Positions 3,688 to 50,966 of a stretch of 64,000 nucleotides of DNA are shown here, piece by piece (position 1 is the first letter of the stretch; every line of letters begins with the position of its first letter). The position numbers and the translations under genes were made by a program. Origin of the DNA: Candidatus Enterousia avicola (GTDB lineage: Bacteria; Pseudomonadota; Alphaproteobacteria; Rs-D84); NCBI GenBank assembly GCA_018714345.1, contig DVNO01000036.1:240-64239 (forward strand). The letters are read 5' to 3'. The notes under the pieces were generated by a model. It had not been told where the DNA came from. It was given only the letters and a program-made list of their open reading frames with translations, and made no database searches.

Positions 3688-5260
3688 TGATTACATCCTT
3701 TATACGACTTACAACCTTATCTTGTCCCATAACTTGCATAATAGAATACAAGTCTGGTGTATTTGTGCGACCTGTTAAAGCCACGCGCAAATTCATTGCT
3801 ACTTCACCATTTTTTACGCCTTTATCGGCGGCGATTGCAACAATCTTTGCCCACCAAGAATCTTTATCATCACAAATATCAAATGTTGATAAAAACGCAG
3901 ATAATAAATCTTTATTAAATTCGTAATCTTTATTTGACACAAACAAATCATCCCAGAAGTAAGAAACCTCCTGCAAAGTTTGTTTCCACGTAATAAAATC
4001 CTTGCGAATACGTTTTGGGTTGTCGCGTTCAATAGCCAAAATATTTTTCAAATATTCTGGATCATTACCGATTCGCGCCGCCCATTGCAAATCATATTCA
4101 TCGGCCCAATCACGAACCCGCTTAACCAATTCATCAACTGGCAAGGTAGCGATATATTCTTTCGCCCACCATTCAAGTTTTTTCATATCAAACAAGGCGC
4201 CAGACATAGGTATCTTCTTTGGACGCATTTCGTAATCCCAAATAGATTTTACCTGTCCTTTAGATTTGGCCTCTTCATAACCAGATGCCGCAATATTTCC
4301 AAGGTACTCTAAAACCGCCTCAACTGGCCAACCATCTTGAAGGAAGAAAGCCACATTAGCTTCTGGATCATGGCGTTTTGATAACTTGCGCTGCTTACCA
4401 GTTTCTTCATCAATTTTATCGATTGTAGAGGTATGAATATATAACGGCGGTGTCCAGCCCATCATCCTAAATAATTGAATATGCAGCGGGAACGAAGGCA
4501 ACCACTCTTCCCCACGAACGACATGAGTCGTACGCATAAAGTGGTCATCACACAAGTGTGCAAAATGGTATGTCGGCAGTCCGTCATTTGATTTTATTAA
4601 GACAATATCTTCATTATTTTCTGGGAAACCTATAGAACCACGGACAGCATCTTTACAAAAAATACGATTCGCTGGGTTGCCCATAGAATACAAACGAATC
4701 GATGGCACTTCACCCGCATCCAATCGACGTGTTATTTCTTCTTCTGATATATCTCTATCCCGCGCAAACTCGCCATATATACCAGTTGCAAAACCAGCTG
4801 CCTTTTGATTTTCACGAATTTTATCCATATCTTCCGGCGTCAGAAAACATGGGTACGCCAAACCACGTGCCAACAAATCTGCTGCTACACTGTGATAAAT
4901 ATCTTTACGCTGAGACTGATAATAAGGCCCATATTCTGGAATATCGTTGTATTCCAAACCGAATCTGTGCATAGAATCTTCAATTATCCTGACTGCGTCA
5001 GCAACCTCGCGCTTGGTATCCGTATCTTCTATGCGCAACATAAACACCCCACCAGATTGACGGGCCAATTTACAATCAATAAACGCCTGATATAAGCCAC
5101 CAATATGCATATACCCTGTCGGGCTTGGTGCAAATCGTGTAACAAACGCCCCTTCTGGTAAATTACGTGGAGGATATTTTGCCTCTAACTCTTCCAAAGT
5201 GTATTTTGGTGCTGCACCCAATACACGTGCAATAACCTCTGCTGATAAACCTTTACGCAT
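3680..5260 (-). CDS. gltX: glutamyl-tRNA synthetase
   Basis: Class I HIGH motif RFAPSPTGYMHIGG and KMSKS-like KLSKR. The FAPSPTG signature indicates GluRS rather than GlnRS. There is roughly a 40-aa N-terminal extension upstream of the HIGH motif. Confidence 0.88.
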   Translation of the reverse strand: MRKGLSAEVIARVLGAAPKYTLEELEAKYPPRNLPEGAFVTRFAPSPTGYMHIGGLYQAFIDCKLARQSGGVFMLRIEDTDTKREVADAVRIIEDSMHRFGLEYNDIPEYGPYYQSQRKDIYHSVAADLLARGLAYPCFLTPEDMDKIRENQKAAGFATGIYGEFARDRDISEEEITRRLDAGEVPSIRLYSMGNPANRIFCKDAVRGSIGFPENNEDIVLIKSNDGLPTYHFAHLCDDHFMRTTHVVRGEEWLPSFPLHIQLFRMMGWTPPLYIHTSTIDKIDEETGKQRKLSKRHDPEANVAFFLQDGWPVEAVLEYLGNIAASGYEEAKSKGQVKSIWDYEMRPKKIPMSGALFDMKKLEWWAKEYIATLPVDELVKRVRDWADEYDLQWAARIGNDPEYLKNILAIERDNPKRIRKDFITWKQTLQEVSYFWDDLFVSNKDYEFNKDLLSAFLSTFDICDDKDSWWAKIVAIAADKGVKNGEVAMNLRVALTGRTNTPDLYSIMQVMGQDKVVSRIKDVING

Positions 5261-9313: not shown

Positions 9314-11326
9314 TTAATCACGCTTTTCTAACGTAGCCAAGAGAATCGTGCACATACAAGAAAATAGCAATATAATAATCATCATACCATCACGACCAAT
9401 TTCTCGATATATTGTACTATGCGCACCGTAAAGGCTTCCATCCATATATCCCTGCTCTGCAACTGGTATTTCTGAAACGACATTGCCATCTGACAATATG
9501 AAAGCGCTAATACCGGAATAATTTGCCCTAACAATTGGCAACCCCGATTCGATTGCGTATCTGCGCACCATGTCCAAATGTTGATAAGTTCCTGGGGTAT
9601 TTCCAAACCAAGTATCATTAGTAATATTTATTATTGCGTCAGGTTTTTCTGCATTTGGAACCAGTGAATCAGAAAAAATTATTTCATAACAAATGGCCGG
9701 CGCAAAACTAAAAACCTTACCATTAATATCAATCGTTATTATTTCTGCCCCATTTCCTTTTGATAATTGACCAGGCGTAGGAATGATGTCACCAAACGGT
9801 CTGTATTCGCCAAACGGAACCAAATGAGACTTACTATAAACTGTCTGAATTGCTCCACCTGGGGTGGCCACAACCATAGAGTTATATAAACTTCCATTCA
9901 TATATGACGTAGCCCCTATGACAACATTATTGTTCAACGCAGCGGCTATTGGCATATCATCACCTTTCAACACAACAAATGGATAGGCTGTTTCTGGAAA
10001 CACAATTAAATCTGGATTACCTGGTCCCTTTGCTAATTCTATAAGAGTATTAACATTATCTGTCGCATTACGAATCGCTTCTTCTCTTGAATGAGTCGCT
10101 TTTTGTTCTGCACTAAGCGCGGGCTGCACAATGCGTATTGTCTGGGTATAATTGTCACTATTATTTGCCTCTGTAATATTTCTATACCCATACAAGGTCC
10201 CAATTCCAGCAAGGGTCAAGAATAATACGAAAGCACCCCAAGAATACTTATTTCTTTTATTCAAAATAAGTTCAACAATAATGGCAATCAAACCAACTAA
10301 AACGAACGTTGTTCCCAAAGCCCCCCAAAGCGCCATGGAATTTGCAAGAATTGGAAACGGCATCAAAATATTAGCCAACGGGTTCCAAGGAAATCCAGTT
10401 AGCAACCACTCGCGCAACCACAAAACAAAAGTCCATACCGCAGCAAACAAAAATGCTCTACATGCTGGTTTTGTGCGTATACAAGAAATTGAAACAAACG
10501 GAATTGAAAAAATTATTCCACCTAATATTCCGATTCCAATAATCGCAGGTATTGTCCAAACTGCAAATTGTTCTGCCAGTTCTGGTACAACAAATATAGA
10601 ATTAACGACCCACCAAAACATAGCTATTGAATAAACCGCACTAAATGGGAAAACGCGTAAGAAGACTTTAAAAACACCTGCCCCAGAAATATTACGAACA
10701 ACTATGGCATAGGCAAACGCTATAGCTATTAAAGTTGCCCACCATAAATGAGTTGGCGCAAAACCTAAGGCAGCCACACCGCCAAGGACTGCCATTATTA
10801 AATACTGTCCAAACCCATTCGGTTTAAATTTTATTCGTTTAAAAAAGGAATAAATTTTGCTGCCTGGACAACATGAAAAATCGCTGCATACGCCTAAATC
10901 CTGCACATAGGGATTTTTTATTCCCATAGAATTTAATATTTCTGTCTCTTTTTTTTCCATTATTTCTGCTTCACTATCTTTTATATGATCATAACCTTGA
11001 AGATGTAACATTCCATGGACAACCATATGAGCAACATGATCCTTAACAGAAATATTTTCTTTTTTTGCTTCTTTCACAATTGTATCTAAGGATATATAAA
11101 TATCACCTAATAAAATATCATCACCCAGTTCGAAAGACAGAACATTTGTGGGCCTATCTATATTACGATACTTTCGATTTATTTCATGAATCTCCTCATC
11201 ATTGGTAAGAGTAATCGAGACCTCTGCTTCCGGTCCTGCATAAACAACCGCAGCATTGGCTATTTTATTAAAATCAATCTTATACTTACGCCAACGTTCA
11301 TCGTTGTAATTTATACATACTTTCAT
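9314..11326 (-). CDS. in-frame fusion of endoribonuclease YbeY and apolipoprotein N-acyltransferase Lnt
   Basis: The ATG at 11326 (MKVCINYN...) lies 14 nt after the upstream stop. The YbeY zinc motif HMVVHGMLHLQGYDH sits at about residues 100-115 of this CDS. Lnt TM helices and a CN-hydrolase domain follow with no stop codon in between. The ORF track extends to 11464, but that stretch overlaps the upstream gene. Confidence 0.8.
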   Translation of the reverse strand: MKVCINYNDERWRKYKIDFNKIANAAVVYAGPEAEVSITLTNDEEIHEINRKYRNIDRPTNVLSFELGDDILLGDIYISLDTIVKEAKKENISVKDHVAHMVVHGMLHLQGYDHIKDSEAEIMEKKETEILNSMGIKNPYVQDLGVCSDFSCCPGSKIYSFFKRIKFKPNGFGQYLIMAVLGGVAALGFAPTHLWWATLIAIAFAYAIVVRNISGAGVFKVFLRVFPFSAVYSIAMFWWVVNSIFVVPELAEQFAVWTIPAIIGIGILGGIIFSIPFVSISCIRTKPACRAFLFAAVWTFVLWLREWLLTGFPWNPLANILMPFPILANSMALWGALGTTFVLVGLIAIIVELILNKRNKYSWGAFVLFLTLAGIGTLYGYRNITEANNSDNYTQTIRIVQPALSAEQKATHSREEAIRNATDNVNTLIELAKGPGNPDLIVFPETAYPFVVLKGDDMPIAAALNNNVVIGATSYMNGSLYNSMVVATPGGAIQTVYSKSHLVPFGEYRPFGDIIPTPGQLSKGNGAEIITIDINGKVFSFAPAICYEIIFSDSLVPNAEKPDAIINITNDTWFGNTPGTYQHLDMVRRYAIESGLPIVRANYSGISAFILSDGNVVSEIPVAEQGYMDGSLYGAHSTIYREIGRDGMMIIILLFSCMCTILLATLEKRD

Positions 11327-44471: not shown

Positions 44472-45593
44472 GTGGGGGGAAAGATAAAAATGTTGGGTTC
44501 TGCAAAGCGGTTATTGTTTCGCTCGTTTAGCTTTTTGTTATGTGTATTTGTATTAACTTCTTGTGATTTGTCTGTACCAACCCACCAGGGTAACAATGCC
44601 GTAATACCATCAAACCTAAAGAAAGTATCGTATAACGATTTACCTGGGTGGCGGAACGATGATGTTAGATATGCATTACAAGCTTTTCGTAACTCTTGCC
44701 GTGCCAGAATTCAATATACAGGGAAAGTAATCCCCGACCGCGAACTTTTTCAAGAAAAATGTCGCATGCTGCCATCTGCATCTGCAGACGTTGCCACAAT
44801 ACGGGCATGGTTTGAATCAAACTTTCAACCATACCAAGTATTTAACGATGACGGTTCGTCCAAGGGATTATATACGGGGTATTATTCTCCTATAATTCCA
44901 GGTTGCCGTACGAAAACAGCCCAATGTAATGAACCGCTTATGGGTGTTCCAACAGATGGCAGAAACTATAAGGGTGTTCCCAAGAAACAGATTGTAGAAC
45001 AACAAATAGGTAGACCTTTATATTGGGCAAACATAGTTGATGTTCAGAACATACAAATCCAAGGCAGTGGTATGTTGCAGTTAGATGATGGCACAATGGT
45101 AAAATTGAATTTTGCCGCTGTAAACGACCTGCCCTTCAAATCGATTGGCGAACAACTTCGTTCAAAAGGCATCAGACCACCGAACGGTTATTCTGCTGAT
45201 GCGGTATGGCAATATTTAAAACAAAACCCAAGCTTAGCCAAAGAGGTGATTTACAACAATCCGCGTTATGTGTATTTCTATGAATCTGTTCCACCAGATG
45301 TTATTGGAAAACTTGGCACACCATTATCAAAGATTCGTTCTATAGCAATGGATGACAGCATATACACTCTTGGTCTGCCAGTATATGTGGATACAAATTT
45401 ATCTGACGGTCGACGTTTCAGTCGCCTGATGATAGCACAAGATACAGGAAGTGCTATACGTGGTTGGATTCGTGCTGACATATTCTTTGGCAAAGGAGAT
45501 GAAGCATACAAATTTGCACACGGTCAGCATGCACAGGGAAAAATGTTCATTTTGATGCCAAAAGAATACACGTATGTCAAACCAACAAAATGA
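44472..45593 (+). CDS. mltA: membrane-bound lytic murein transglycosylase A
   Basis: Lipoprotein signal sequence (LTSCD) and MltA 3D-domain motifs (AQDTGSAIRG...FFGKGDEA). Confidence 0.85.
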   Translation: MGGKIKMLGSAKRLLFRSFSFLLCVFVLTSCDLSVPTHQGNNAVIPSNLKKVSYNDLPGWRNDDVRYALQAFRNSCRARIQYTGKVIPDRELFQEKCRMLPSASADVATIRAWFESNFQPYQVFNDDGSSKGLYTGYYSPIIPGCRTKTAQCNEPLMGVPTDGRNYKGVPKKQIVEQQIGRPLYWANIVDVQNIQIQGSGMLQLDDGTMVKLNFAAVNDLPFKSIGEQLRSKGIRPPNGYSADAVWQYLKQNPSLAKEVIYNNPRYVYFYESVPPDVIGKLGTPLSKIRSIAMDDSIYTLGLPVYVDTNLSDGRRFSRLMIAQDTGSAIRGWIRADIFFGKGDEAYKFAHGQHAQGKMFILMPKEYTYVKPTK

Positions 45594-45903
45594 TTTCAAC
45601 AAACGTTCAAAGCGTCCTCAGACAATTGCTAGTGCGATGGGCGATTTGATGCGCATGTTTGGCATTCGTGCATCTGATGCAGACTTGGTAAAACGTTGGG
45701 ATAAAATAATGGGGCCAGAAATATCCAGTATTGCCAGCATTGCATCAATAAAAAAAATGAAAGATGGAAACTTTAATATAACCTTGCGTCCAAACAACCC
45801 AGCATTCACATTGCAACTTTCATACATGACAGAAGAAATAAAAGAAAAAATAAACAAATATTTCGGTCGTGACGCAGTTGCAAAAATTAGTTTTAGAAAA
45901 TAA
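45574..45903 (+). CDS. DUF721 (DciA-like) domain protein
   Basis: 109-aa basic protein whose pattern resembles DUF721. Overlaps mltA by 20 nt. Confidence 0.5.
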   Translation: MSNQQNDFNKRSKRPQTIASAMGDLMRMFGIRASDADLVKRWDKIMGPEISSIASIASIKKMKDGNFNITLRPNNPAFTLQLSYMTEEIKEKINKYFGRDAVAKISFRK

Positions 45904-45907
45904 AAAA

Positions 45908-45950
45908 CGCTGTATATACTAGAAATTAAGCATATACAGCAATTTTTATA
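45908..45950. terminator. bidirectional terminator
   Basis: 9-bp stem GCTGTATAT/ATATACAGC followed by AATTTTTAT. Confidence 0.45.
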
Positions 45951-45955
45951 CAAAA

Positions 45956-46234
45956 TTATTTTATCATTTTTCTTTCCCACCAAATCGCAATTGCAGGAAC
46001 CAAGAAAAGGATTACACCGGCCAATCCCCACAAAGCCAACGTTCCAACCGCATAGACAAAGAACATAGGTGCGGACACGCCAGTAACCCATACACCAAAA
46101 TAAATAAGCTGTGGTACAAAGGTTAACATCCATATCAACAAAACCAACAAAGTATTTACGGCGAATGCGCGAAGCAACACTCGTTGTTTAGATAATAACT
46201 TTATGTTACGCATTTCTTGAAAATCGTTTTTCAT
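45956..46234 (-). CDS. small 2-TM membrane protein (hypothetical)
   Basis: 92-aa protein with two hydrophobic helices. Confidence 0.4.
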   Translation of the reverse strand: MKNDFQEMRNIKLLSKQRVLLRAFAVNTLLVLLIWMLTFVPQLIYFGVWVTGVSAPMFFVYAVGTLALWGLAGVILFLVPAIAIWWERKMIK

Positions 46235-46283: not shown

Positions 46284-46763
46284 TTAGAAACTGAATTTAC
46301 TCATATTAGCATGAGCCAATGCAATTGCTATAGCATCACTTTCATCAGATGTTTTTGGTTTTGCCGCCGGCAATAAAATTCTTACCATTTTATAAACTTG
46401 TTCTTTATCTGCATGACCAGCGGAAGTTAAGGCTTTTTTTATTTTATTCGGTTCATACTCAAATACAGGAATATCCTTATTTGCAACAGCAACTATTGCA
46501 GCCGCCCTAGCATGCCCCAGTATTAAAGTCGTTTTTGGATTTTGATTTACGAATGTAATTTCTATACTGCACACATCGGGGCAAAATTTTTCACAAAGTT
46601 CCGTAACACCACGAAAAATTATGCTTAACCGTTCGGGCAACGATAAAGATGTTTTTGGCAAAATCACCCCACTTGCAACATAGTGACGCTCTGCCCCACT
46701 AGAATCAATGATGGCCCAACCTGTATGTAAAAGTCCCGGATCAATACCGATTATTCTTGTCAT
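46284..46763 (-). CDS. ruvC: crossover junction endodeoxyribonuclease RuvC
   Basis: N-terminus MTRIIGIDPGLLHTGWAI with a catalytic Asp. 159 aa. Confidence 0.9.
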   Translation of the reverse strand: MTRIIGIDPGLLHTGWAIIDSSGAERHYVASGVILPKTSLSLPERLSIIFRGVTELCEKFCPDVCSIEITFVNQNPKTTLILGHARAAAIVAVANKDIPVFEYEPNKIKKALTSAGHADKEQVYKMVRILLPAAKPKTSDESDAIAIALAHANMSKFSF

Positions 46764-46772
46764 AATATAATT

Positions 46773-47423
46773 TTATCTTTTTAACTTAATTTCATACGTT
46801 CCATCTGAATTTTCCCAGACCTCCCAATTTTTTCTATCACAATATAAATTCATATCTCTTTCCAAGAATTGAATATCATCACGAAAATCACATTCCAATT
46901 TAGCTGATGGGACACAAGACAACGTAGCTTTCATTTCTTTACAATATTTATTGATTATATAAGCCTGTAATCTTCCTGCAAAAAACGTATTCGCCATACC
47001 CTGCCTATTTAAAGCGGTAAATTTATACGACACGTTATAAATATCATCTCCACCTTCTGTATCTGTATCGGACGATTGCTTGGCCGTGGCGTTTTCAAAA
47101 ACAGCAAAAGTCATATTTAAACATTGGTCCAACAAAGTTTCACTTTCTTCTAAATTTTTCAACTTTAAAGCGAAGCCGTAACAATTTGTCCCCAATTCAT
47201 ACATAGATATCGATATGCATTTAAGAGCCTCATTATAGTACCCATAAGACATCAACATCTCAACGAAAGAATCTGTTTCTGATTCTGAAAAGATGGAACG
47301 CAAAGGTTTCTCTATATCCGACCAAGCTAAATTATAAGAATAATCCACAGAAAAATTATCATCTGCCAGTGCTGGGGCAAACAAACCAAAGGATAAAAAC
47401 AAACACATCATAAATCTTATCAT
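46773..47423 (-). CDS. secreted Cys-containing hypothetical protein
   Basis: Signal peptide MIRFMMCLFLSFGLFAPALA and eight Cys residues. Its start ATG overlaps the upstream gene's TGA stop (ATGA). Confidence 0.5.
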   Translation of the reverse strand: MIRFMMCLFLSFGLFAPALADDNFSVDYSYNLAWSDIEKPLRSIFSESETDSFVEMLMSYGYYNEALKCISISMYELGTNCYGFALKLKNLEESETLLDQCLNMTFAVFENATAKQSSDTDTEGGDDIYNVSYKFTALNRQGMANTFFAGRLQAYIINKYCKEMKATLSCVPSAKLECDFRDDIQFLERDMNLYCDRKNWEVWENSDGTYEIKLKR

Positions 47424-48379
47424 TTTAACGCCCCCTCGCATTCGTCAGCAATATTCACAATCTTCTTTATTGCATTTATTTGCGTAGCATTAAAGACAGT
47501 TGCTGTTAAAGACGCAGCAGTCGTTGCCCCACCTAATATATTTGAAGCCTTATTTAAATTCTTCTCTCTGTCTGCATTGTCTGTCTTTTTGTTCGCCATT
47601 CCAGAAGTTATTGTTCCAGAAAGCCCAGTAACCGCACCAATAGCGCTAGAAATTGTAGCCCCATCTGATTTCTTATTAATTACTGATAAATCTGCAAACT
47701 CATATTCGCCACAAGCCTTAATAATTCGGTCTGCACGTGCTGAATTTGAAGATTCTAATTCGCCCGCAACATGAGCCTGCAATTTGGCATTTTCTAAGCT
47801 TTCAACAGATTTAATACAATTTTGAATTTTTGTAATCAAGTCATCGTCCGCACGATTTTTGCTAGCCATCACAGCACCCGCAATATTAGCCACCGTACTA
47901 GTTGCCATTAAACCTGTACGAACATTACCAAGCGTCTCAGATTTTTGCTGCTCTTTTTTTAACTGTTCTTCTAAGGGATTTTTAACTGCATCATCAGATT
48001 TTTTCAAACCAGAATCTTTAATAGCAGCAGCCAATTCTGCTTTACTAACTTTTGTCTTATCAAAGCCAGTATTAGTTACGGTCGCATCTTCAACACTTCC
48101 CATTTTATATCTATCTAGCAAGTTTTTTATTTCTTCGATGCTTTTATCTGTCTTCGACTTAACAATACCAGAAATAGTAGCCCCTGCTCCAACAGCCGTA
48201 CCAATACCAGTCACTGCCGTATTTATACCTGCCATTCTTTTTAAATCATCCATACTGCTTGATATACCAGAACAATGAATTCTTGCAGATTCTAAAGCTA
48301 TATCAAAACTTGCAGGTTCTGCCGCAAATGCATTGAAAACACAAAAGTTAATCAGTAAAAACACTCGACATAATTTCAT
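47420..48379 (-). CDS. secreted protein with four Gly/Ala/Thr-rich amphipathic segments
   Basis: Signal peptide MKLCRVFLLINFCVFNAFAA. Four segments recur at about 75-aa spacing between charged coiled regions: GINTAVTGIGTAVGAGATISG, GLMATSTVANIAGAVMAS, ISSAIGAVTGLSGTITSG and ILGGATTAASLTATVFNA. Confidence 0.5.
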   Translation of the reverse strand: MKLCRVFLLINFCVFNAFAAEPASFDIALESARIHCSGISSSMDDLKRMAGINTAVTGIGTAVGAGATISGIVKSKTDKSIEEIKNLLDRYKMGSVEDATVTNTGFDKTKVSKAELAAAIKDSGLKKSDDAVKNPLEEQLKKEQQKSETLGNVRTGLMATSTVANIAGAVMASKNRADDDLITKIQNCIKSVESLENAKLQAHVAGELESSNSARADRIIKACGEYEFADLSVINKKSDGATISSAIGAVTGLSGTITSGMANKKTDNADREKNLNKASNILGGATTAASLTATVFNATQINAIKKIVNIADECEGALK

Positions 48380-48427
48380 TAAAAAGCCCCACCTACGTTC
48401 TAGGGGATTATATCACATTTATAAGCA

Positions 48428-48466
48428 CAAAAAAAGCGTCACAAAAGTGTGACGCCTTTTTATAAT
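48428..48466 (-). terminator. terminator downstream of yebC
   Basis: GCGTCACA-AAAG-TGTGACGC hairpin flanked by T-runs. Confidence 0.55.
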
Positions 48467-48475
48467 TCTTTACTT

Positions 48476-49192
48476 TTATGCAGCCGCCGTAAAAACTTTC
48501 TGAACGTCATCATTATCGTCCAATGCATCAACAAGCTTTTCTAGCTTTGCATAAGTTTCTTCGTCTAAATCCATCGGCATATTTGGAATCCAAGTAAGTT
48601 CAGCACTTTCCGGTTCGCCCAACTTATCCGACAAAACTTTCTGAACTGTCATAAAGTCATCTGGCTTTGTTGTAATAATGAATCCTTCGTCAGACGATTC
48701 TAGATTGTCGGCATTTGCCTCCATTATGATTTCCATCATTTCGTCTTCTGTTTTACCAATTGATGCAGGATAGAAAATCTGCCCCACACGTGTAAACATA
48801 AACACAACACTTCCCTCTTCCCCCATGTTGCCACCATTTTTGGCGAAGATATTACGAACATCTGGAACCGTACGACGCGGGTTATCGGTCAACGCCTCTA
48901 CAATAACAGGAACAGCCCCTGGTCCATAACCTTCATAACGCACCGCAACATAGTTTTCTGTATTTGAACCAGACGCTTTATCAATTGCGCGCTTAATATT
49001 ATCATTCGGCATAGAGTTCTTACGAGCATTCAAGACCGCCAAACGCAACCGAGGGTTGTTATCTGGATTTTTATCGCCCAATTTTGCCGCCATTGTTATT
49101 TCACGTGCCAGCTTCGTAAACAAACCGCTACGAGCTGCATCCACAGCACCTTTTTTGTGCTGAATATTATGCCATTTGCTGTGTCCACTCAT
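48476..49192 (-). CDS. yebC: YebC/PmpR-family transcriptional regulator
   Basis: N-terminus MSGHSKWHNIQHKKG is the YebC signature. Confidence 0.9.
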   Translation of the reverse strand: MSGHSKWHNIQHKKGAVDAARSGLFTKLAREITMAAKLGDKNPDNNPRLRLAVLNARKNSMPNDNIKRAIDKASGSNTENYVAVRYEGYGPGAVPVIVEALTDNPRRTVPDVRNIFAKNGGNMGEEGSVVFMFTRVGQIFYPASIGKTEDEMMEIIMEANADNLESSDEGFIITTKPDDFMTVQKVLSDKLGEPESAELTWIPNMPMDLDEETYAKLEKLVDALDDNDDVQKVFTAAA

Positions 49193-49242: not shown

Positions 49243-49821
49243 ATGATTGGGAAATTGCAAGGCATAGTTGATTATATTGGTGATGGGTTTATTATATTAA
49301 TGGTACACGACGTTGGCTATAAAGTCTTTACCCCTGAATACTTAACCCCAAAATCAACTGTGTCTTTATGGATAGAAACAGTAGTTCGCGAAGATTCAAT
49401 AAGGTTATTTGGTTTTTCGTCCATAGCTGCCCAAAACCTGTTTATACAACTAAACGGCGTATCTGGTGTTGGTCCCAAGGTAGCCTTGGCCATAATGAGC
49501 ACGATAAAAACAGACACACTGATGTCCGCAATCGCAACAGGTGACGCCAAGACGATAGCAACCGCGCCGGGGGTTGGAAAAAAAGTTGCTGAAAAAATAA
49601 TATTAGAATTAAAGAACAAGGTCGGTGGTGCGTCTTTCGACTTTGGTGCGTCAAATTCTGACGGTTCTGCCCTGCCTGATTTGCTGGCTGCACTAGAATC
49701 ATTGGGTTACAGAAGATTAGATATAATAGATATAGCCCAAAAATTGGTAAAAGAAAATCCAAGCTCGGACGTTGCCAAATTAGTACCAATGGCATTAAAA
49801 GAAATCAGTGGGAATAAGTAA
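49243..49821 (+). CDS. ruvA: Holliday junction DNA helicase subunit RuvA
   Basis: MIGKLQG N-terminus, HhH motifs (GVGPKVAL, GVGKKVAEKI) and a C-terminal domain. 192 aa. Confidence 0.9.
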   Translation: MIGKLQGIVDYIGDGFIILMVHDVGYKVFTPEYLTPKSTVSLWIETVVREDSIRLFGFSSIAAQNLFIQLNGVSGVGPKVALAIMSTIKTDTLMSAIATGDAKTIATAPGVGKKVAEKIILELKNKVGGASFDFGASNSDGSALPDLLAALESLGYRRLDIIDIAQKLVKENPSSDVAKLVPMALKEISGNK

Positions 49822-50966
49822 TGAATAAAATCAAACAATTTTTATATGCAATAGGCATTTTAACAAATGTGCCCCATAAAAAAATAAACAGCATAGACGA
49901 ATTGCTGCAATTGCCGTTTGAAAGTACCCCGAATCAAAAACGGGTTCATCATGTAGATTTGTCTGAAATAGACTTATCAAAAGAGAAAGATATGTTCACA
50001 GGTCCCCTTCCAAAATACTACGTTTCACCCGAAGAAGCGAAAAAATTAAAAATTGTGACAAACTGGACCACAGATGTAATCTGGCCTACTGCAGACAAAT
50101 TGCCACCTGATTTTAATCCTGTAAAGGAACTAGAAACCGCAAAAACCCCGACGGACACAATTAACTTGCATAAATCCGGTAAAACCGGCAAAGGCATATC
50201 AATAGCGATTATTGATCAGCGCTTAAATAGAGAACACCCAGAATATGCCAGCAACATAAAACATTATTCTGTTTTTGGGCCATGGGATAAAAACGGAATT
50301 GATTATCATGGCAGTTTGGTTTCTGGTTGTGCTGTCGGCCACACAACAGGGACTGCCCCCGACGCAAATTTATATTACTTTGCCGCGCCAATGATTGTAG
50401 ACGGTGAACTGGACAGAAAATATATAAACGAAGCAATCAGACAGTTATTAGAAATAAACAAAACATTACCCGAAAATAAGAAGATAAGATTTTTATCATG
50501 CAGTTGGGGCGGTACAAAAGACAACGGCGTAGATGAAACTAAAGTACTTTTTGATGAATGCGAAAAAAGCGGAATTATGGTAATTGGAGGAGCATATAAA
50601 GCAACATCAGAATATATTCCATACGACAAAAAATATAAAAACAAAACAAACCTTATCGGGATTCCAACAAATGGAAAAACAACACCGTTTTGGCAAGGTG
50701 GCTATTATTACACTCGCCAAGGAGGAACATCTTCAACATTTCCGTATATTGCTGGAATTCTTGCTTGTGCAACACAAGGAAATGAACTATTTTTCACACG
50801 CAAAAATTGGCCGGATGAGTTAAGAAATATAATAAAGCAAACCGCAACAAATTCACCAGAACATGGTTTAGCAATTAATCCTGACGGGATTGCAGAAACA
50901 GTTACACAAATTACGAAAGAAATGGAAAAGCAGATAATAATAAACAAAAGTAAACAAAATGAATAA
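49821..50966 (+). CDS. subtilisin-like S8 serine peptidase, no signal peptide
   Basis: Candidate triad blocks: D in GISIAIIDQ, H in YHGSLVSGCAVG, S in GGTSSTFPYIAGILA. Its start overlaps the ruvA stop (TAATG) and its end overlaps the mnmE start by 8 nt. Confidence 0.6.
   Translation: MNKIKQFLYAIGILTNVPHKKINSIDELLQLPFESTPNQKRVHHVDLSEIDLSKEKDMFTGPLPKYYVSPEEAKKLKIVTNWTTDVIWPTADKLPPDFNPVKELETAKTPTDTINLHKSGKTGKGISIAIIDQRLNREHPEYASNIKHYSVFGPWDKNGIDYHGSLVSGCAVGHTTGTAPDANLYYFAAPMIVDGELDRKYINEAIRQLLEINKTLPENKKIRFLSCSWGGTKDNGVDETKVLFDECEKSGIMVIGGAYKATSEYIPYDKKYKNKTNLIGIPTNGKTTPFWQGGYYYTRQGGTSSTFPYIAGILACATQGNELFFTRKNWPDELRNIIKQTATNSPEHGLAINPDGIAETVTQITKEMEKQIIINKSKQNE

What the first reader, a model, noticed from the sequence alone, without database searches (positions are those of the whole stretch)
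46773..48379. Translationally coupled pair of secreted proteins between ruvC and yebC, one with four glycine-zipper-like segments
The yebC-ruvC-ruvA arrangement is normally contiguous. Here two signal-peptide proteins are inserted between yebC and ruvC, with ATGA stop/start overlap at 47420-47423.

The 319-aa protein has four Gly/Ala/Thr-rich amphipathic stretches about 20 aa each at roughly 75-aa spacing, separated by Lys/Glu-rich helical regions. This is reminiscent of the glycine-zipper membrane-insertion motifs of pore-forming or secreted effector proteins. The 216-aa partner carries eight cysteines.

As a secreted pair of unknown function inserted in a conserved recombination operon, these are candidates for surface-structure or effector proteins.
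Basis: partly seen in the sequence, partly recalled or inferred. Interest (0 to 1): 0.6.

Follow-up and report, generated by a model that had tools for sequence, protein, structure and literature searches.

The report
Coupled secreted gene pair, unknown family
The two genes are real and form one copy of a previously undescribed, multi-copy two-gene cassette found only in small-genome gut Alphaproteobacteria: a conserved exported helical protein with glycine-zipper helices, always coupled to a highly variable cysteine-rich partner, which probably form a cell-envelope complex for contact with other cells.

Summary
The observation largely holds. On the minus strand, gene A (319 aa, 47420-48379) and gene B (216 aa, 46773-47423) lie between yebC and ruvC and share an ATGA stop/start overlap. 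Both carry signal peptides. A has four uncharged Gly/Ala/Thr-rich helices, but they are not repeats and are spaced 100/90/37 aa apart, not ~75.

Neither protein matches Pfam, NCBIfam, PHROGs, PADLOC or PDB sequences. Two AlphaFold models of A found no fold match.

A belongs to a family of 463 clusters, seen only in uncultured gut alphaproteobacterial MAGs of the 'Ca. Enterousia'/Rs-D84 type, often in several copies per genome. In 87 cassettes the A stop overlaps or abuts the start of a signal-peptide, Cys-rich ORF of 170-1600 aa. The Shine-Dalgarno for that ORF sits inside A's conserved last codons. A subtypes track B types. Both genes are under purifying selection.

The yebC-A-B-ruvC position is kept only in the closest clade.

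Best reading, confidence about 0.4: an extracytoplasmic A-B complex. A would be the conserved, disulfide-locked glycine-zipper scaffold carrying a variable coiled-coil stalk, and B the variable specificity subunit. The function is untested.

The parts
48429..48455 (-). Intrinsic-terminator-like hairpin after yebC (stem GCGTCACA/TGTGACGC, loop CTTT, then T7). It separates yebC from the cassette.
   Evidence: Read directly from the sequence. The palindromic stem at 48436-48455 was also reported by the scan.
48407..48415 (-). Extended -10 promoter-like element TGaTATAAT upstream of gene A
   Evidence: Sequence read. This is a consensus match only, not evidence of function.
48387..48394 (-). Shine-Dalgarno-like AGGTGGGG, 7 nt before the A start codon
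   Evidence: Sequence read.
47420..48379 (-). Gene A: a 319-aa exported all-alpha protein with four invariant Cys (C36, C188, C223, C314). It founds a family of 463 clusters at 50% identity.
   Evidence: ORF. Homologues. Alignments A1 and A3. AlphaFold models with pLDDT 72.5 and 76.7. dN/dS 0.07 against L087.
48323..48379 (-). A signal peptide (residues 1-19, cleavage predicted at AFA|AE)
   Evidence: Sequence. An N-terminal hydrophobic leader is conserved in relatives. No lipobox is present.
48161..48232 (-). A segment 1 (residues 50-73), an uncharged glycine-zipper helix
   Evidence: Entropy is 1.28 bits, charged residues are absent, and a strict zipper motif occurs in 51/110 relatives.
47933..48160 (-). 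A loop 1 (residues 74-149): a Lys/Glu-rich coiled-coil hairpin ('stalk') that is hypervariable in sequence and in length
   Evidence: Entropy 3.09 bits. Length is 46-100 aa in most relatives and up to about 430 aa in P0235. Extra Cys pairs occur here in 8 relatives.
47855..47932 (-). A segment 2 (residues 150-175), an uncharged helix containing the near-invariant R154 (conserved in at least 90% of 110 relatives)
47591..47662 (-). A segment 3 (residues 240-263), the canonical glycine zipper (S244xxxG248xxxG252)
   Evidence: The strict motif is present in 89/110 relatives.
47480..47551 (-). A segment 4 (residues 277-300), an uncharged helix. Together with segment 3 it forms a helical hairpin around a 13-aa charged loop.
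47431..47437 (-). Shine-Dalgarno GAGGGGG for gene B, embedded in A's conserved C-terminal codons (Cys-Glu-Gly)
   Evidence: Sequence. An equivalent SD-like motif was found in 84 of 87 cassettes.
47420..47423 (-). ATGA stop/start overlap (translational coupling of A and B)
   Evidence: Junctions across 87 cassettes: 58 ATGA/GTGA overlaps, 14 TAATG overlaps and 15 gaps of 1-2 nt.
46773..47423 (-). Gene B: a 216-aa exported, fast-evolving protein with seven Cys in the mature part
   Evidence: ORF. Only near-identical database hits. Syntenic orthologues are 25-40% identical. dN/dS is 0.12-0.15.
46776..47048 (-). B C-terminal domain (residues 126-216) with four conserved Cys (C161, C171, C178, C197) and the motif DDIY...YC...SC.P...L.CD...RD..L.C...NW...DG.YE..L.R
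   Evidence: BLAST against L001 B gives 36% identity, E=2e-21. Alignment A2.
46284..46763 (-). ruvC starts 9 nt after the B stop with no terminator between them, so it is probably co-transcribed with A-B
45956..46234 (-). 92-aa hydrophobic ORF conserved downstream of ruvC in relatives; probably the last gene of the unit
   Evidence: Present in L001 and L005-L010.
45908..45941 (-). Terminator-like hairpin (13-bp stem followed by a T run) at the end of the unit

Best explanation
The two ORFs are one copy of a lineage-specific two-gene cassette of small-genome gut Alphaproteobacteria of the 'Ca. Enterousia'/Rs-D84 type.

**Gene A.** It encodes a Sec-exported, all-helical protein with a conserved base. 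The base is a small core domain, probably locked by two disulfides formed from the four invariant Cys, plus four uncharged glycine-zipper helices. These helices are too weakly hydrophobic to stop in the inner membrane. A hypervariable, length-variable coiled-coil hairpin projects from the base.

**Gene B.** It is translated by coupling from a Shine-Dalgarno embedded in A's last codons and an overlapping ATGA. It encodes a hypervariable Cys-rich extracytoplasmic protein.

**Proposed mechanism.** The two proteins are made in a fixed ratio, oxidatively folded in the periplasm, and assembled into an envelope or surface complex. A's glycine-zipper bundle would supply oligomerisation and/or membrane association. 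B, together with A's stalk, would supply the variable, outward-facing specificity for contact with host or partner cells.

**Shown:** gene structure, coupling, family distribution, conservation pattern, A/B co-diversification, purifying selection, and the absence of known homologues.

**Inferred:** export, disulfides, A-B complex formation, membrane association and the contact role.
For: - **Genes and coupling.** ORFs, the ATGA overlap and the SD inside A are read. Across 87 cassettes every A is followed at -4, -1, +1 or +2 nt by a signal-peptide, Cys-rich ORF. An SD-like motif was found within A's conserved C-[E/T]-G codons in 84 of 87.
- **Family and distribution.** More than 1000 homologues were found, falling into 463 clusters at 50% identity. 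The GTDB scan gave 340 confirmed stretches, and the 80 kept loci are all uncultured gut or rumen alphaproteobacterial/'Ca. Enterousia' MAGs. At least 11 assemblies hold two or more copies, and tandem cassettes occur.
- **Conservation pattern.** The four G/A/T segments are the most conserved regions (1.2-1.4 bits) and are almost free of charged residues. Loop 1 is the most variable region (3.1 bits). Glycine-zipper motifs are conserved. Of 110 relatives, 92 have exactly four Cys in the mature protein, and C36, C188, C223 and C314 are invariant.
- **Extracytoplasmic location.** Segment hydrophobicity is KD 1.0-1.2, with a summed Hessa scale of +5 to +7.5 kcal/mol, and there is no positive-inside bias. 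Extra Cys pairs occur in loop 1, and the long loop of P0254 is Cys-rich.
- **Structure.** AlphaFold gives an all-alpha model with a confident Cys-bearing core and lower-confidence zipper helices.
- **Co-diversification.** The nearest A neighbour has the same B type in 56 of 68 cases.
- **Real genes.** dN/dS is 0.03-0.12 for A and 0.12-0.15 for B. A and B are nevertheless the fastest-evolving genes in the neighbourhood. Against L005, dN is 0.34 for A and 0.51 for B, versus 0.04 for yebC.
- **Lifestyle context.** Rs-D84 genomes are 0.75-1.0 Mb, lack biosynthesis pathways and standard transporters, and are proposed to be partner-dependent (PMC12306168).
Against: - There is no direct evidence for an A-B interaction, for localisation or for any function.
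- Signal peptides were judged by eye and simple rules, not by SignalP.
- The zipper helices have only pLDDT 56-73, so their packing as a bundle is inferred from helix boundaries.
- A is poor in aromatic residues (4 F, 2 Y and no W in the mature protein), which is unusual for an integral membrane protein.
- The window's B shows no significant profile link to most other B types. hhalign probabilities are below 1%, and profile iteration recruits only L011 and L018. 'One B family with a shared N-domain' is therefore not shown.
- The cassette sits in a housekeeping-dense region and may be co-transcribed with ruvC. That fits a housekeeping envelope role equally well.
Confidence: 0.4

Rival explanations
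1. A is an alpha-helical pore-former or translocator that works like ClyA/YaxAB/AhlABC-type toxins or VacA-type glycine-zipper channels. It would be exported as a soluble, disulfide-restrained protein. It would then insert its uncharged helical hairpin(s) into the outer membrane or a target-cell membrane, either to release or deliver B or to tap a partner cell.
For: - Four conserved uncharged helices of about 24 aa carry glycine-zipper motifs. Segments 3 and 4 form a hairpin around a 13-aa charged loop.
- The protein is Sec-exported and all-alpha, with long helices.
- The marginal hydrophobicity fits a soluble-to-membrane switch.
- The two genes form a binary operon with strict coupling.
- The host lineage lacks transporters and biosynthesis pathways (PMC12306168).
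Against: - No Pfam hit to HlyE, Bacillus_HBL, colicin or glycine-zipper families was found in any of the 110 members.
- Foldseek places AhlB, SmhB and MakA only at E 0.6-0.9 with TM about 0.2, which is not significant.
- The conserved polar residues inside the segments (N, T, S, Q, R154) and the scarcity of aromatic residues fit helix-helix packing at least as well as lipid exposure.
- No activity data exist.
Confidence: 0.2
2. The pair is a lineage-specific housekeeping envelope component. A would be a periplasmic helical chaperone or scaffold and B a structural periplasmic protein, with no role in interaction with other cells.
For: - The cassette lies among housekeeping genes (yebC, ruvC, recA, mltA, secB) with matching G+C.
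- Its position is conserved in the closest clade.
- ruvC follows 9 nt after B with no terminator between them.
- Both genes are under purifying selection.
Against: - There are several divergent paralogous cassettes per genome. B varies from 170 to 1600 aa and falls into about 17 BLAST-unrelated clusters.
- A and B evolve roughly 9 and 13 times faster than yebC at non-synonymous sites.
- There is no match to any known periplasmic family.
Confidence: 0.2
3. The cassette is a polymorphic-toxin-like system. B would be a variable toxin or effector, and A its conserved export helper, analogous to MafA-MafB or to TpsB-TpsA/CdiB-CdiA.
For: - The upstream partner is conserved and the downstream, signal-peptide-bearing partner is hypervariable.
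- Some large B proteins in other loci carry HExxH motifs in Cys-poor C-terminal regions.
- Cassettes are multi-copy and dispersed.
Against: - There is no immunity-like gene. ruvC starts 9 nt after the window's B, and no conserved small ORF follows B elsewhere.
- No toxin, TPS, DUF1020, Omp85 or POTRA domain was detected in any A or B.
- A has no lipobox.
- The large B proteins look like type-I membrane proteins: Cys-rich before a strong TM segment and Cys-poor after it.
- The window's B is only 196 aa when mature.
Confidence: 0.07
4. A is an integral inner-membrane protein with a cleavable signal peptide and four transmembrane helices (segments 1-4). The Cys-bearing parts would be periplasmic and loop 1 cytoplasmic.
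For: - There are four uncharged segments of about 24 aa.
- In this topology all four invariant Cys fall on the periplasmic side.
- The segment length matches bilayer thickness.
Against: - KD hydropathy is 1.0-1.2, below 1.6. The summed biological-scale insertion cost is +5 to +7.5 kcal/mol per segment.
- There is no positive-inside bias; loop 1 has a net charge of -3.8.
- Paired extra Cys occur in loop 1 of 8 relatives, and P0254 has a Cys-rich long loop. Both argue that loop 1 lies in an oxidising compartment.
- The protein is very poor in aromatic residues.
Confidence: 0.08

Closest known systems
ClyA-superfamily alpha-pore-forming toxins, including binary and tripartite YaxAB/XaxAB and AhlABC/SmhABC/Hbl/Nhe
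   Same: - Both are all-alpha proteins of about 300 aa with very long helices and an uncharged helical hairpin.
- Both are encoded in small operons of co-acting partners.
- ClyA is also held in check by a periplasmic disulfide (from general knowledge).
   Different: - No sequence or profile match was found.
- No significant fold match was found. AhlB, SmhB and MakA score E 0.6-0.9 with TM about 0.2.
- Here the partner B is Cys-rich, hypervariable and unrelated to A. The partners in those toxins are paralogous helical proteins.
- Here there are four zipper helices plus a two-disulfide core.
Glycine-zipper channel or packing motifs (VacA N-terminus, MscS/MscL, Pfam Gly-zipper families, Rickettsia 17-kDa antigen)
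   Same: (G/A/S)xxxGxxxG and small-xxx-small ladders are conserved in the four segments.
   Different: - No Pfam Gly-zipper or Rick_17kDa_Anti hit was found, even at E<1.
- The segments here carry conserved polar residues (N, T, S, Q, R154).
- They sit in a larger disulfide-bonded helical protein.
Two-partner secretion (TpsB-TpsA/CdiB-CdiA) and Neisseria MafA-MafB cassettes
   Same: - Gene logic is shared: a conserved upstream partner, then a signal-peptide-bearing, polymorphic downstream protein.
- Both occur as dispersed, multi-copy cassettes.
   Different: - A is helical. It is not an Omp85 beta-barrel and not a lipoprotein.
- B has no TPS or DUF1020 domain.
- There is no immunity gene.
Alpha-helical outer-membrane-spanning assemblies (Wza, VirB10 antenna)
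   Same: These set a precedent for weakly hydrophobic helices or hairpins, exported through Sec, that span the outer membrane as oligomers. The layout of A would fit that picture: a periplasmic core, an uncharged bundle, then a variable stalk.
   Different: There is no homology. The oligomeric state and membrane location of A are unknown. This is an analogy only.

Membership tests
ClyA/Hbl/Nhe/AhlB-type alpha-pore-forming toxins | Sequence or profile match to the family models (Pfam HlyE, Bacillus_HBL and related) | tested here: not met
   Pfam scans of A and of all 110 aligned relatives at E<=1 gave no such hit.
ClyA/Hbl/Nhe/AhlB-type alpha-pore-forming toxins | Elongated helical-bundle fold with a head or tongue domain, superposable on solved members | tested here: not met
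ClyA/Hbl/Nhe/AhlB-type alpha-pore-forming toxins | Membrane insertion and pore formation | not testable with these tools
   This needs liposome or bilayer assays.
Glycine-zipper proteins (motif class) | (G/A/S)xxxGxxxG or GxxxGxxx(G/S/T) motif conserved in a helix | tested here: met
   The strict motif occurs in segment 3 of 89/110 relatives and in segment 1 of 51/110. Small-xxx-small ladders occur in 90-110 of 110.
Pfam Gly-zipper_Omp / Gly-zipper_YMGG / Rick_17kDa_Anti families | Profile match | tested here: not met
   No hit.
Two-partner secretion (TpsB/TpsA) | Upstream Omp85-type beta-barrel with POTRA domains, and cargo with an N-terminal TPS (Haemagg_act) domain | tested here: not met
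   A is predicted to be all-alpha. No Pfam domains were found in A or in nine B proteins of different types.
MafA-MafB polymorphic toxin cassettes | MafA lipoprotein, MafB N-terminal DUF1020, and a downstream immunity gene | tested here: not met
   A has no lipobox. No Pfam hit was found. ruvC follows B after 9 nt, and no conserved small ORF follows B elsewhere.
Integral inner-membrane 4-TM protein | Segments hydrophobic enough for Sec stop-transfer, and a positive-inside charge bias | tested here: not met
   KD is 1.0-1.2, with a summed Hessa scale of +5 to +7.5 kcal/mol. Loop 1 has net charge -3.8. Cys pairs occur in loop 1.
   Searches of Pfam, NCBIfam, PHROGs, PADLOC, PDB sequence profiles and Foldseek PDB/BFVD all gave no significant match.
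A+B cassette family defined here | An A-type gene (4 invariant Cys, 4 zipper segments) whose stop overlaps or abuts the start of a signal-peptide, Cys-rich ORF, with the SD inside A's C-terminal codons | tested here: met
   The window copy is shown. The family-wide pattern is shown.

The most novel reading that the evidence does not exclude
A is a new kind of alpha-helical, glycine-zipper membrane-spanning protein. It would span either the outer membrane or a target-cell membrane. Its disulfide-locked core would stay in the periplasm and its variable coiled-coil stalk would project outward. With its co-translated variable partner B, it would form a previously unknown contact or uptake apparatus. 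Metabolically crippled, partner-dependent gut Alphaproteobacteria would use this apparatus to attach to and tap host or partner cells.
Probability: 0.15. Interest if true: 0.85.

Novelty: categorically new. Interest (0 to 1): 0.58.

Why it matters
Rs-D84/'Ca. Enterousia' bacteria are widespread in human and livestock guts. Their genomes are under 1 Mb, with no respiration, no amino-acid, nucleotide or fatty-acid synthesis, and no standard transporters. How they obtain resources or attach to a partner is unknown (PMC12306168).

This cassette is strictly coupled, multi-copy and exported. Its A scaffold is conserved and its B partner and A stalk are highly variable. It also takes up a visible share of a tiny genome, since some B genes are nearly 5 kb. 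That makes it a concrete, testable candidate for the cell-contact machinery.

It would also add a protein family with no detectable relatives. Its architecture is unusual: four conserved, uncharged glycine-zipper helices in a Sec-exported, disulfide-bonded helical protein.

Tried and rejected
- **Internal repeats in A.** A self-BLAST found none, so the four segments are not detectable duplications.
- **Paralogues in the window.** tblastn found none.
- **Known families.** Pfam, NCBIfam, PHROGs and PADLOC gave nothing for A or B. A Pfam scan of all 110 A relatives gave only scattered sub-threshold noise: DUF7937 in 12, DUF6944 in 10, and single hits to T4SS_pilin and Goodbye. These were rejected as compositional.
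- **PDB sequence searches.** Profile and single-sequence searches for A, B and two large B proteins found nothing significant.
- **Phage or plasmid origin.** Only 2 of 2.9 million viral contigs hold a relative, and there were no tblastn hits in the phage or plasmid collections. Rejected.
- **A shared N-terminal domain for all B types.** A MAFFT alignment suggested a weak 'W-N-S ... C ... C' pattern. hhalign and profile iteration support links only among some clusters, not with the window's B. Left open.
- **More B homologues.** Two large-database searches returned only near-identical proteins plus two proteins of the L011/L018 B type. No useful alignment for a B structure prediction could be built.
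- **4-TM inner-membrane model.** Considered and disfavoured.
- **Apparent cassettes without B.** The 'none' rows arose because my ORF filter dropped ORFs that run off the end of a locus. tblastn shows B is present.
Full report
**1. What is in the window**

On the minus strand the gene order is as follows:
- yebC (48476-49192; Pfam TACO1/YebC, 1.8e-54)
- gene A (47420-48379, 319 aa)
- gene B (46773-47423, 216 aa)
- ruvC (46284-46763; Pfam RuvC, 8e-42)
- a 92-aa hydrophobic ORF (45956-46234)

The raw sequence shows these signals around the pair:
- yebC is followed by a terminator-like hairpin: GCGTCACA-CTTT-TGTGACGC at 48436-48455, then T7.
- Next come an extended -10 element (TGaTATAAT, 48407-48415) and an SD (AGGTGGGG) 7 nt before A's ATG.
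- A's TGA and B's ATG overlap as ATGA (47420-47423).
- A GAGGGGG Shine-Dalgarno lies 7 nt upstream of B's ATG, inside A's last codons (Cys-Glu-Gly).
- ruvC starts 9 nt after B's stop with no terminator between them.
- A 13-bp-stem terminator follows the 92-aa ORF (45908-45941).

The likely transcription unit is therefore A-B-ruvC-ORF92, separate from yebC. This is inferred from consensus signals only.

ruvA is not downstream. It lies upstream of yebC and is transcribed divergently (49243-49821, +).

G+C across A-B (0.32-0.39) matches the flanks. The surrounding window is dense in housekeeping genes, including recA, mutL, ftsK, bipA, lnt, mltA, secB and dciA. Nothing suggests a recently acquired island.

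**2.

Most of it holds.
- Both proteins begin with signal-peptide-like leaders: A is ...NAFA|AEPAS and B is ...PALA|DDNF. Neither has a lipobox.
- A has four uncharged Gly/Ala/Thr-rich segments at residues 50-73, 150-175, 240-263 and 277-300.
- B has eight Cys, seven of them in the mature protein.

Three corrections are needed.
- The segments are spaced 100, 90 and 37 aa apart, not ~75.
- A self-BLAST detects no internal repeat.
- The 'normally contiguous yebC-ruvC-ruvA' premise does not describe this lineage.

**3. Gene A belongs to a sizeable but taxonomically narrow family with no known relatives**

A word-indexed search found more than 1000 homologues, all unnamed or 'hypothetical protein'. 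An exhaustive profile search of 1.84 billion representatives found 463 clusters at E<=1e-3.

A scan of one genome per GTDB species found 340 confirmed stretches. The 80 kept loci are all uncultured gut, rumen or faecal MAGs labelled Alphaproteobacteria, proteobacterium, bacterium or 'Candidatus Enterousia'.
- At least 11 assemblies contribute two loci to these 80.
- Three loci hold tandem cassettes (L033, L045, L056).

Only 2 of 2.9 million viral contigs hold a relative. No phage or plasmid record does.

All of the following gave no significant match:
- Pfam, NCBIfam, PHROGs and PADLOC
- a Pfam scan of all 110 aligned relatives
- a PDB sequence-profile search

According to PMC12306168, 'Ca. 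Enterousia' and its order Rs-D84 have these properties:
- genomes of 0.75-1.0 Mb
- no TCA cycle or respiration
- no amino-acid, nucleotide or fatty-acid biosynthesis
- no standard transporters
- a proposed partner-dependent lifestyle

**4. Anatomy of A**

In a 110-sequence alignment (A3), C36, C188, C223 and C314 are invariant. Of the 110 relatives, 92 have exactly four Cys in the mature part.

The four G/A/T segments stand out in several ways.
- They are the most conserved regions, at 1.2-1.4 bits of column entropy. The N-helix and the core are at 2.3-2.4, and loop 74-149 is at 3.1.
- They are essentially free of charged residues, apart from the near-invariant R154.
- They carry conserved polar residues (N53, T54, T155, N165, N175, S259, N263, N280, N297, Q300).
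- Strict glycine-zipper motifs occur in segment 3 of 89/110 relatives and segment 1 of 51/110. Small-xxx-small ladders occur in 90-110 of 110.

Their hydropathy is marginal: KD over 19 residues is about 1.0-1.2, and the summed Hessa scale is +5 to +7.5 kcal/mol. There is no positive-inside bias. They should therefore pass through Sec rather than anchor in the inner membrane.

Loop 1 (residues 74-149) is a Lys/Glu-rich helical hairpin that varies in sequence and in length.
- It is 46-100 aa in most relatives and up to about 430 aa in P0235. The rest of the architecture is unchanged in those long forms.
- Eight relatives carry an extra pair of Cys 5-7 residues apart in this loop, and P0254's long loop is Cys-rich.
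- This argues that loop 1 also sits in an oxidising, extracytoplasmic compartment, and it argues against a 4-TM inner-membrane topology.

Two AlphaFold2 models were built, from 27 and 110 sequences (pLDDT 72.5 and 76.7, pTM 0.54 and 0.59). Both are all-alpha.
- Residues 21-45, 180-230 and 305-319, which bear the Cys, have pLDDT above 90.
- The zipper helices have pLDDT 56-73.
- From the helix boundaries, segments 1+2 form the base of the long hairpin and segments 3+4 form a second hairpin. The inferred layout is core - uncharged four-helix stretch - stalk. I had no coordinates, so this is an inference.

**5. Gene B and the cassette rule**

The window's B has only near-identical database hits. 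Syntenic orthologues are 25-40% identical. The best-conserved part is a C-terminal domain of about 90 aa with four Cys (E=2e-21 against L001).

Every A gene with readable downstream sequence is followed immediately by an ORF that has a signal peptide and many Cys. These ORFs range from about 170 to 1600 aa. The apparent exceptions were ORFs running off the locus end, and tblastn recovered them.

The junction is nearly invariant across 87 cassettes:
- 58 ATGA or GTGA overlaps
- 14 TAATG overlaps
- 15 gaps of 1-2 nt
- an SD-like GAGGGGG, ACGGGGG or GAGGAGG inside A's conserved C-[E/T]-G codons in 84 of 87

B proteins fall into about 17 BLAST clusters. Profile methods join only some of them. The window's cluster recruits L011 and L018 but not the large types.

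A subtypes track B types. The nearest A neighbour has the same B cluster in 56 of 68 cases, and A identity is 58% within a B cluster versus 46% between clusters. The pair therefore diversifies as a unit.

One A can be followed by two B paralogues (L006, L017).

The roughly 900-1600-aa B proteins have 4-5 Cys per 100 aa before a strongly hydrophobic segment (KD up to 2.4) and 0-0.7 (1.3 in one) per 100 aa after it. That is the signature of a type-I membrane protein with an oxidised ectodomain and a cytoplasmic tail. Two of them carry HExxH motifs. None has a Pfam domain. The window's B has no such anchor.

**6. Synteny and evolution**

The yebC-A-B-ruvC-ORF92 order is kept in L001, L005-L008, L010, L048 and L087, and without ORF92 in L009. 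In these loci A is 50-57% or about 99% identical to the window's A.
- In L002, ruvC is inverted.
- In L024 and L030, A-B abuts an inverted ruvC and yebC is absent.
- About 70 other copies lie in unrelated contexts. One example is L003, where the cassette lies between rpmB and ligA.

Within the species (window versus L087), dN/dS is 0.07 for A and 0.15 for B. Both are real, constrained genes.

Across the clade (window versus L005), they are the fastest-evolving genes nearby. dN is 0.34 for A and 0.51 for B, against 0.04 for yebC and 0.19 for ruvC.

**7. Interpretation**

Shown:
- The cassette is strictly coupled, exported (by sequence features), lineage-restricted and multi-copy.
- A has a conserved base and a hypervariable stalk.
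- B is hypervariable and co-diversifies with A.
- Neither protein has a detectable relative.

Inferred, confidence about 0.4: the two proteins form a fixed-ratio extracytoplasmic complex. A's disulfide-locked core and glycine-zipper bundle would provide oligomerisation and/or membrane association. The variable parts would face the outside world, for attachment to or contact with host or partner cells.

Rivals:
- A as a pore-former or translocator that works like an alpha-pore-forming toxin (0.2). The motifs and marginal hydrophobicity are attractive, but there is no sequence or fold support.
- A lineage-specific housekeeping envelope pair (0.2).
- A polymorphic toxin with an export helper (0.07). 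No immunity gene or toxin domains were found.
- A 4-TM inner-membrane protein (0.08). This is disfavoured by hydropathy, charge distribution and the loop-1 Cys.

**8. Novelty and score**

Every family I could test for membership failed its defining features (see the membership table). Only the motif-level 'glycine zipper' label holds. The system lies far from any described kind, but its function is unproven.

I rate it 'categorically new' in the sense of having no detectable known relative. Interest is moderate to high (0.58). It is a concrete, testable candidate for how a widespread, uncultured, metabolically dependent gut lineage interacts with its surroundings. At present it is still a pair of conserved hypothetical proteins.

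Noticed in passing
window 49821-50966 (+): A 381-aa subtilase-like ORF (Pfam Peptidase_S8 4.6e-16; PHROG protease 3.9e-12; PADLOC 'subtilase' 1e-7) is wedged between ruvA and mnmE. Its start overlaps the ruvA stop and its end overlaps the mnmE start by 8 nt. It is absent from the same-species contig L087 and from L001 and L005-L010, where ruvA and mnmE are adjacent. It therefore looks like a strain-specific insertion. It has no obvious signal peptide.
   Followed up: partly
window 46773-47770 versus L048:3-994, with flanks: Against contig CALXNF010000069 (L048), synonymous divergence is 0.13 for the A C-terminus and 0.29 for B. It is 1.0-1.8 for ruvC, ORF92, dciA, mltA and secB. Either the cassette allele was recently exchanged between otherwise diverged genomes, or the contig end is chimeric, since the contig starts inside A.
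   Followed up: partly
L016, L021, L023, L036, L041, L042, L044, L050, L057-L060, L065, L071, L072, L074, L075, L078, L080-L084 (B genes downstream of A): The large B partners (900-1600 aa) are Cys-rich (4-5 per 100 aa) up to a strongly hydrophobic TM-like segment and nearly Cys-free after it, which suggests type-I membrane proteins. L060 and L078 carry HExxH motifs in the C-terminal part. No Pfam domain was found in those tested.
   Followed up: partly
P0199, P0235, P0246, P0254 (A relatives, 580-708 aa): These keep the full A architecture, but loop 1 is expanded to about 350-430 aa of coiled coil. The stalk is therefore length-variable.
   Followed up: partly
L078: about 4872-4990 and 10568-10795: Long (CA)n/(TG)n dinucleotide runs flank an A-B cassette (ORF translations read HTHTHT... 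and CVCVCV...). This could be phase-variation or recombination substrate, or an assembly artefact.
   Followed up: no
L006:5975-7566; L017:5867-8727; L033, L045, L056: One A gene can be followed by two tandem B paralogues (L006, L017). Whole cassettes also occur in tandem (L033, L045, L056), which points to local duplication as the way the family expands.
   Followed up: no
window 45956-46234 (-): A 92-aa two-TM-like ORF with no Pfam family is conserved immediately downstream of ruvC in all close relatives and is probably co-transcribed with A-B-ruvC.
   Followed up: no
window 45574-45593: The 3' end of mltA (44472-45593, +) and the start of dciA (45574-45903, +) overlap by 20 nt. The same tight mltA/dciA pairing is conserved in the related loci.
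   Followed up: no
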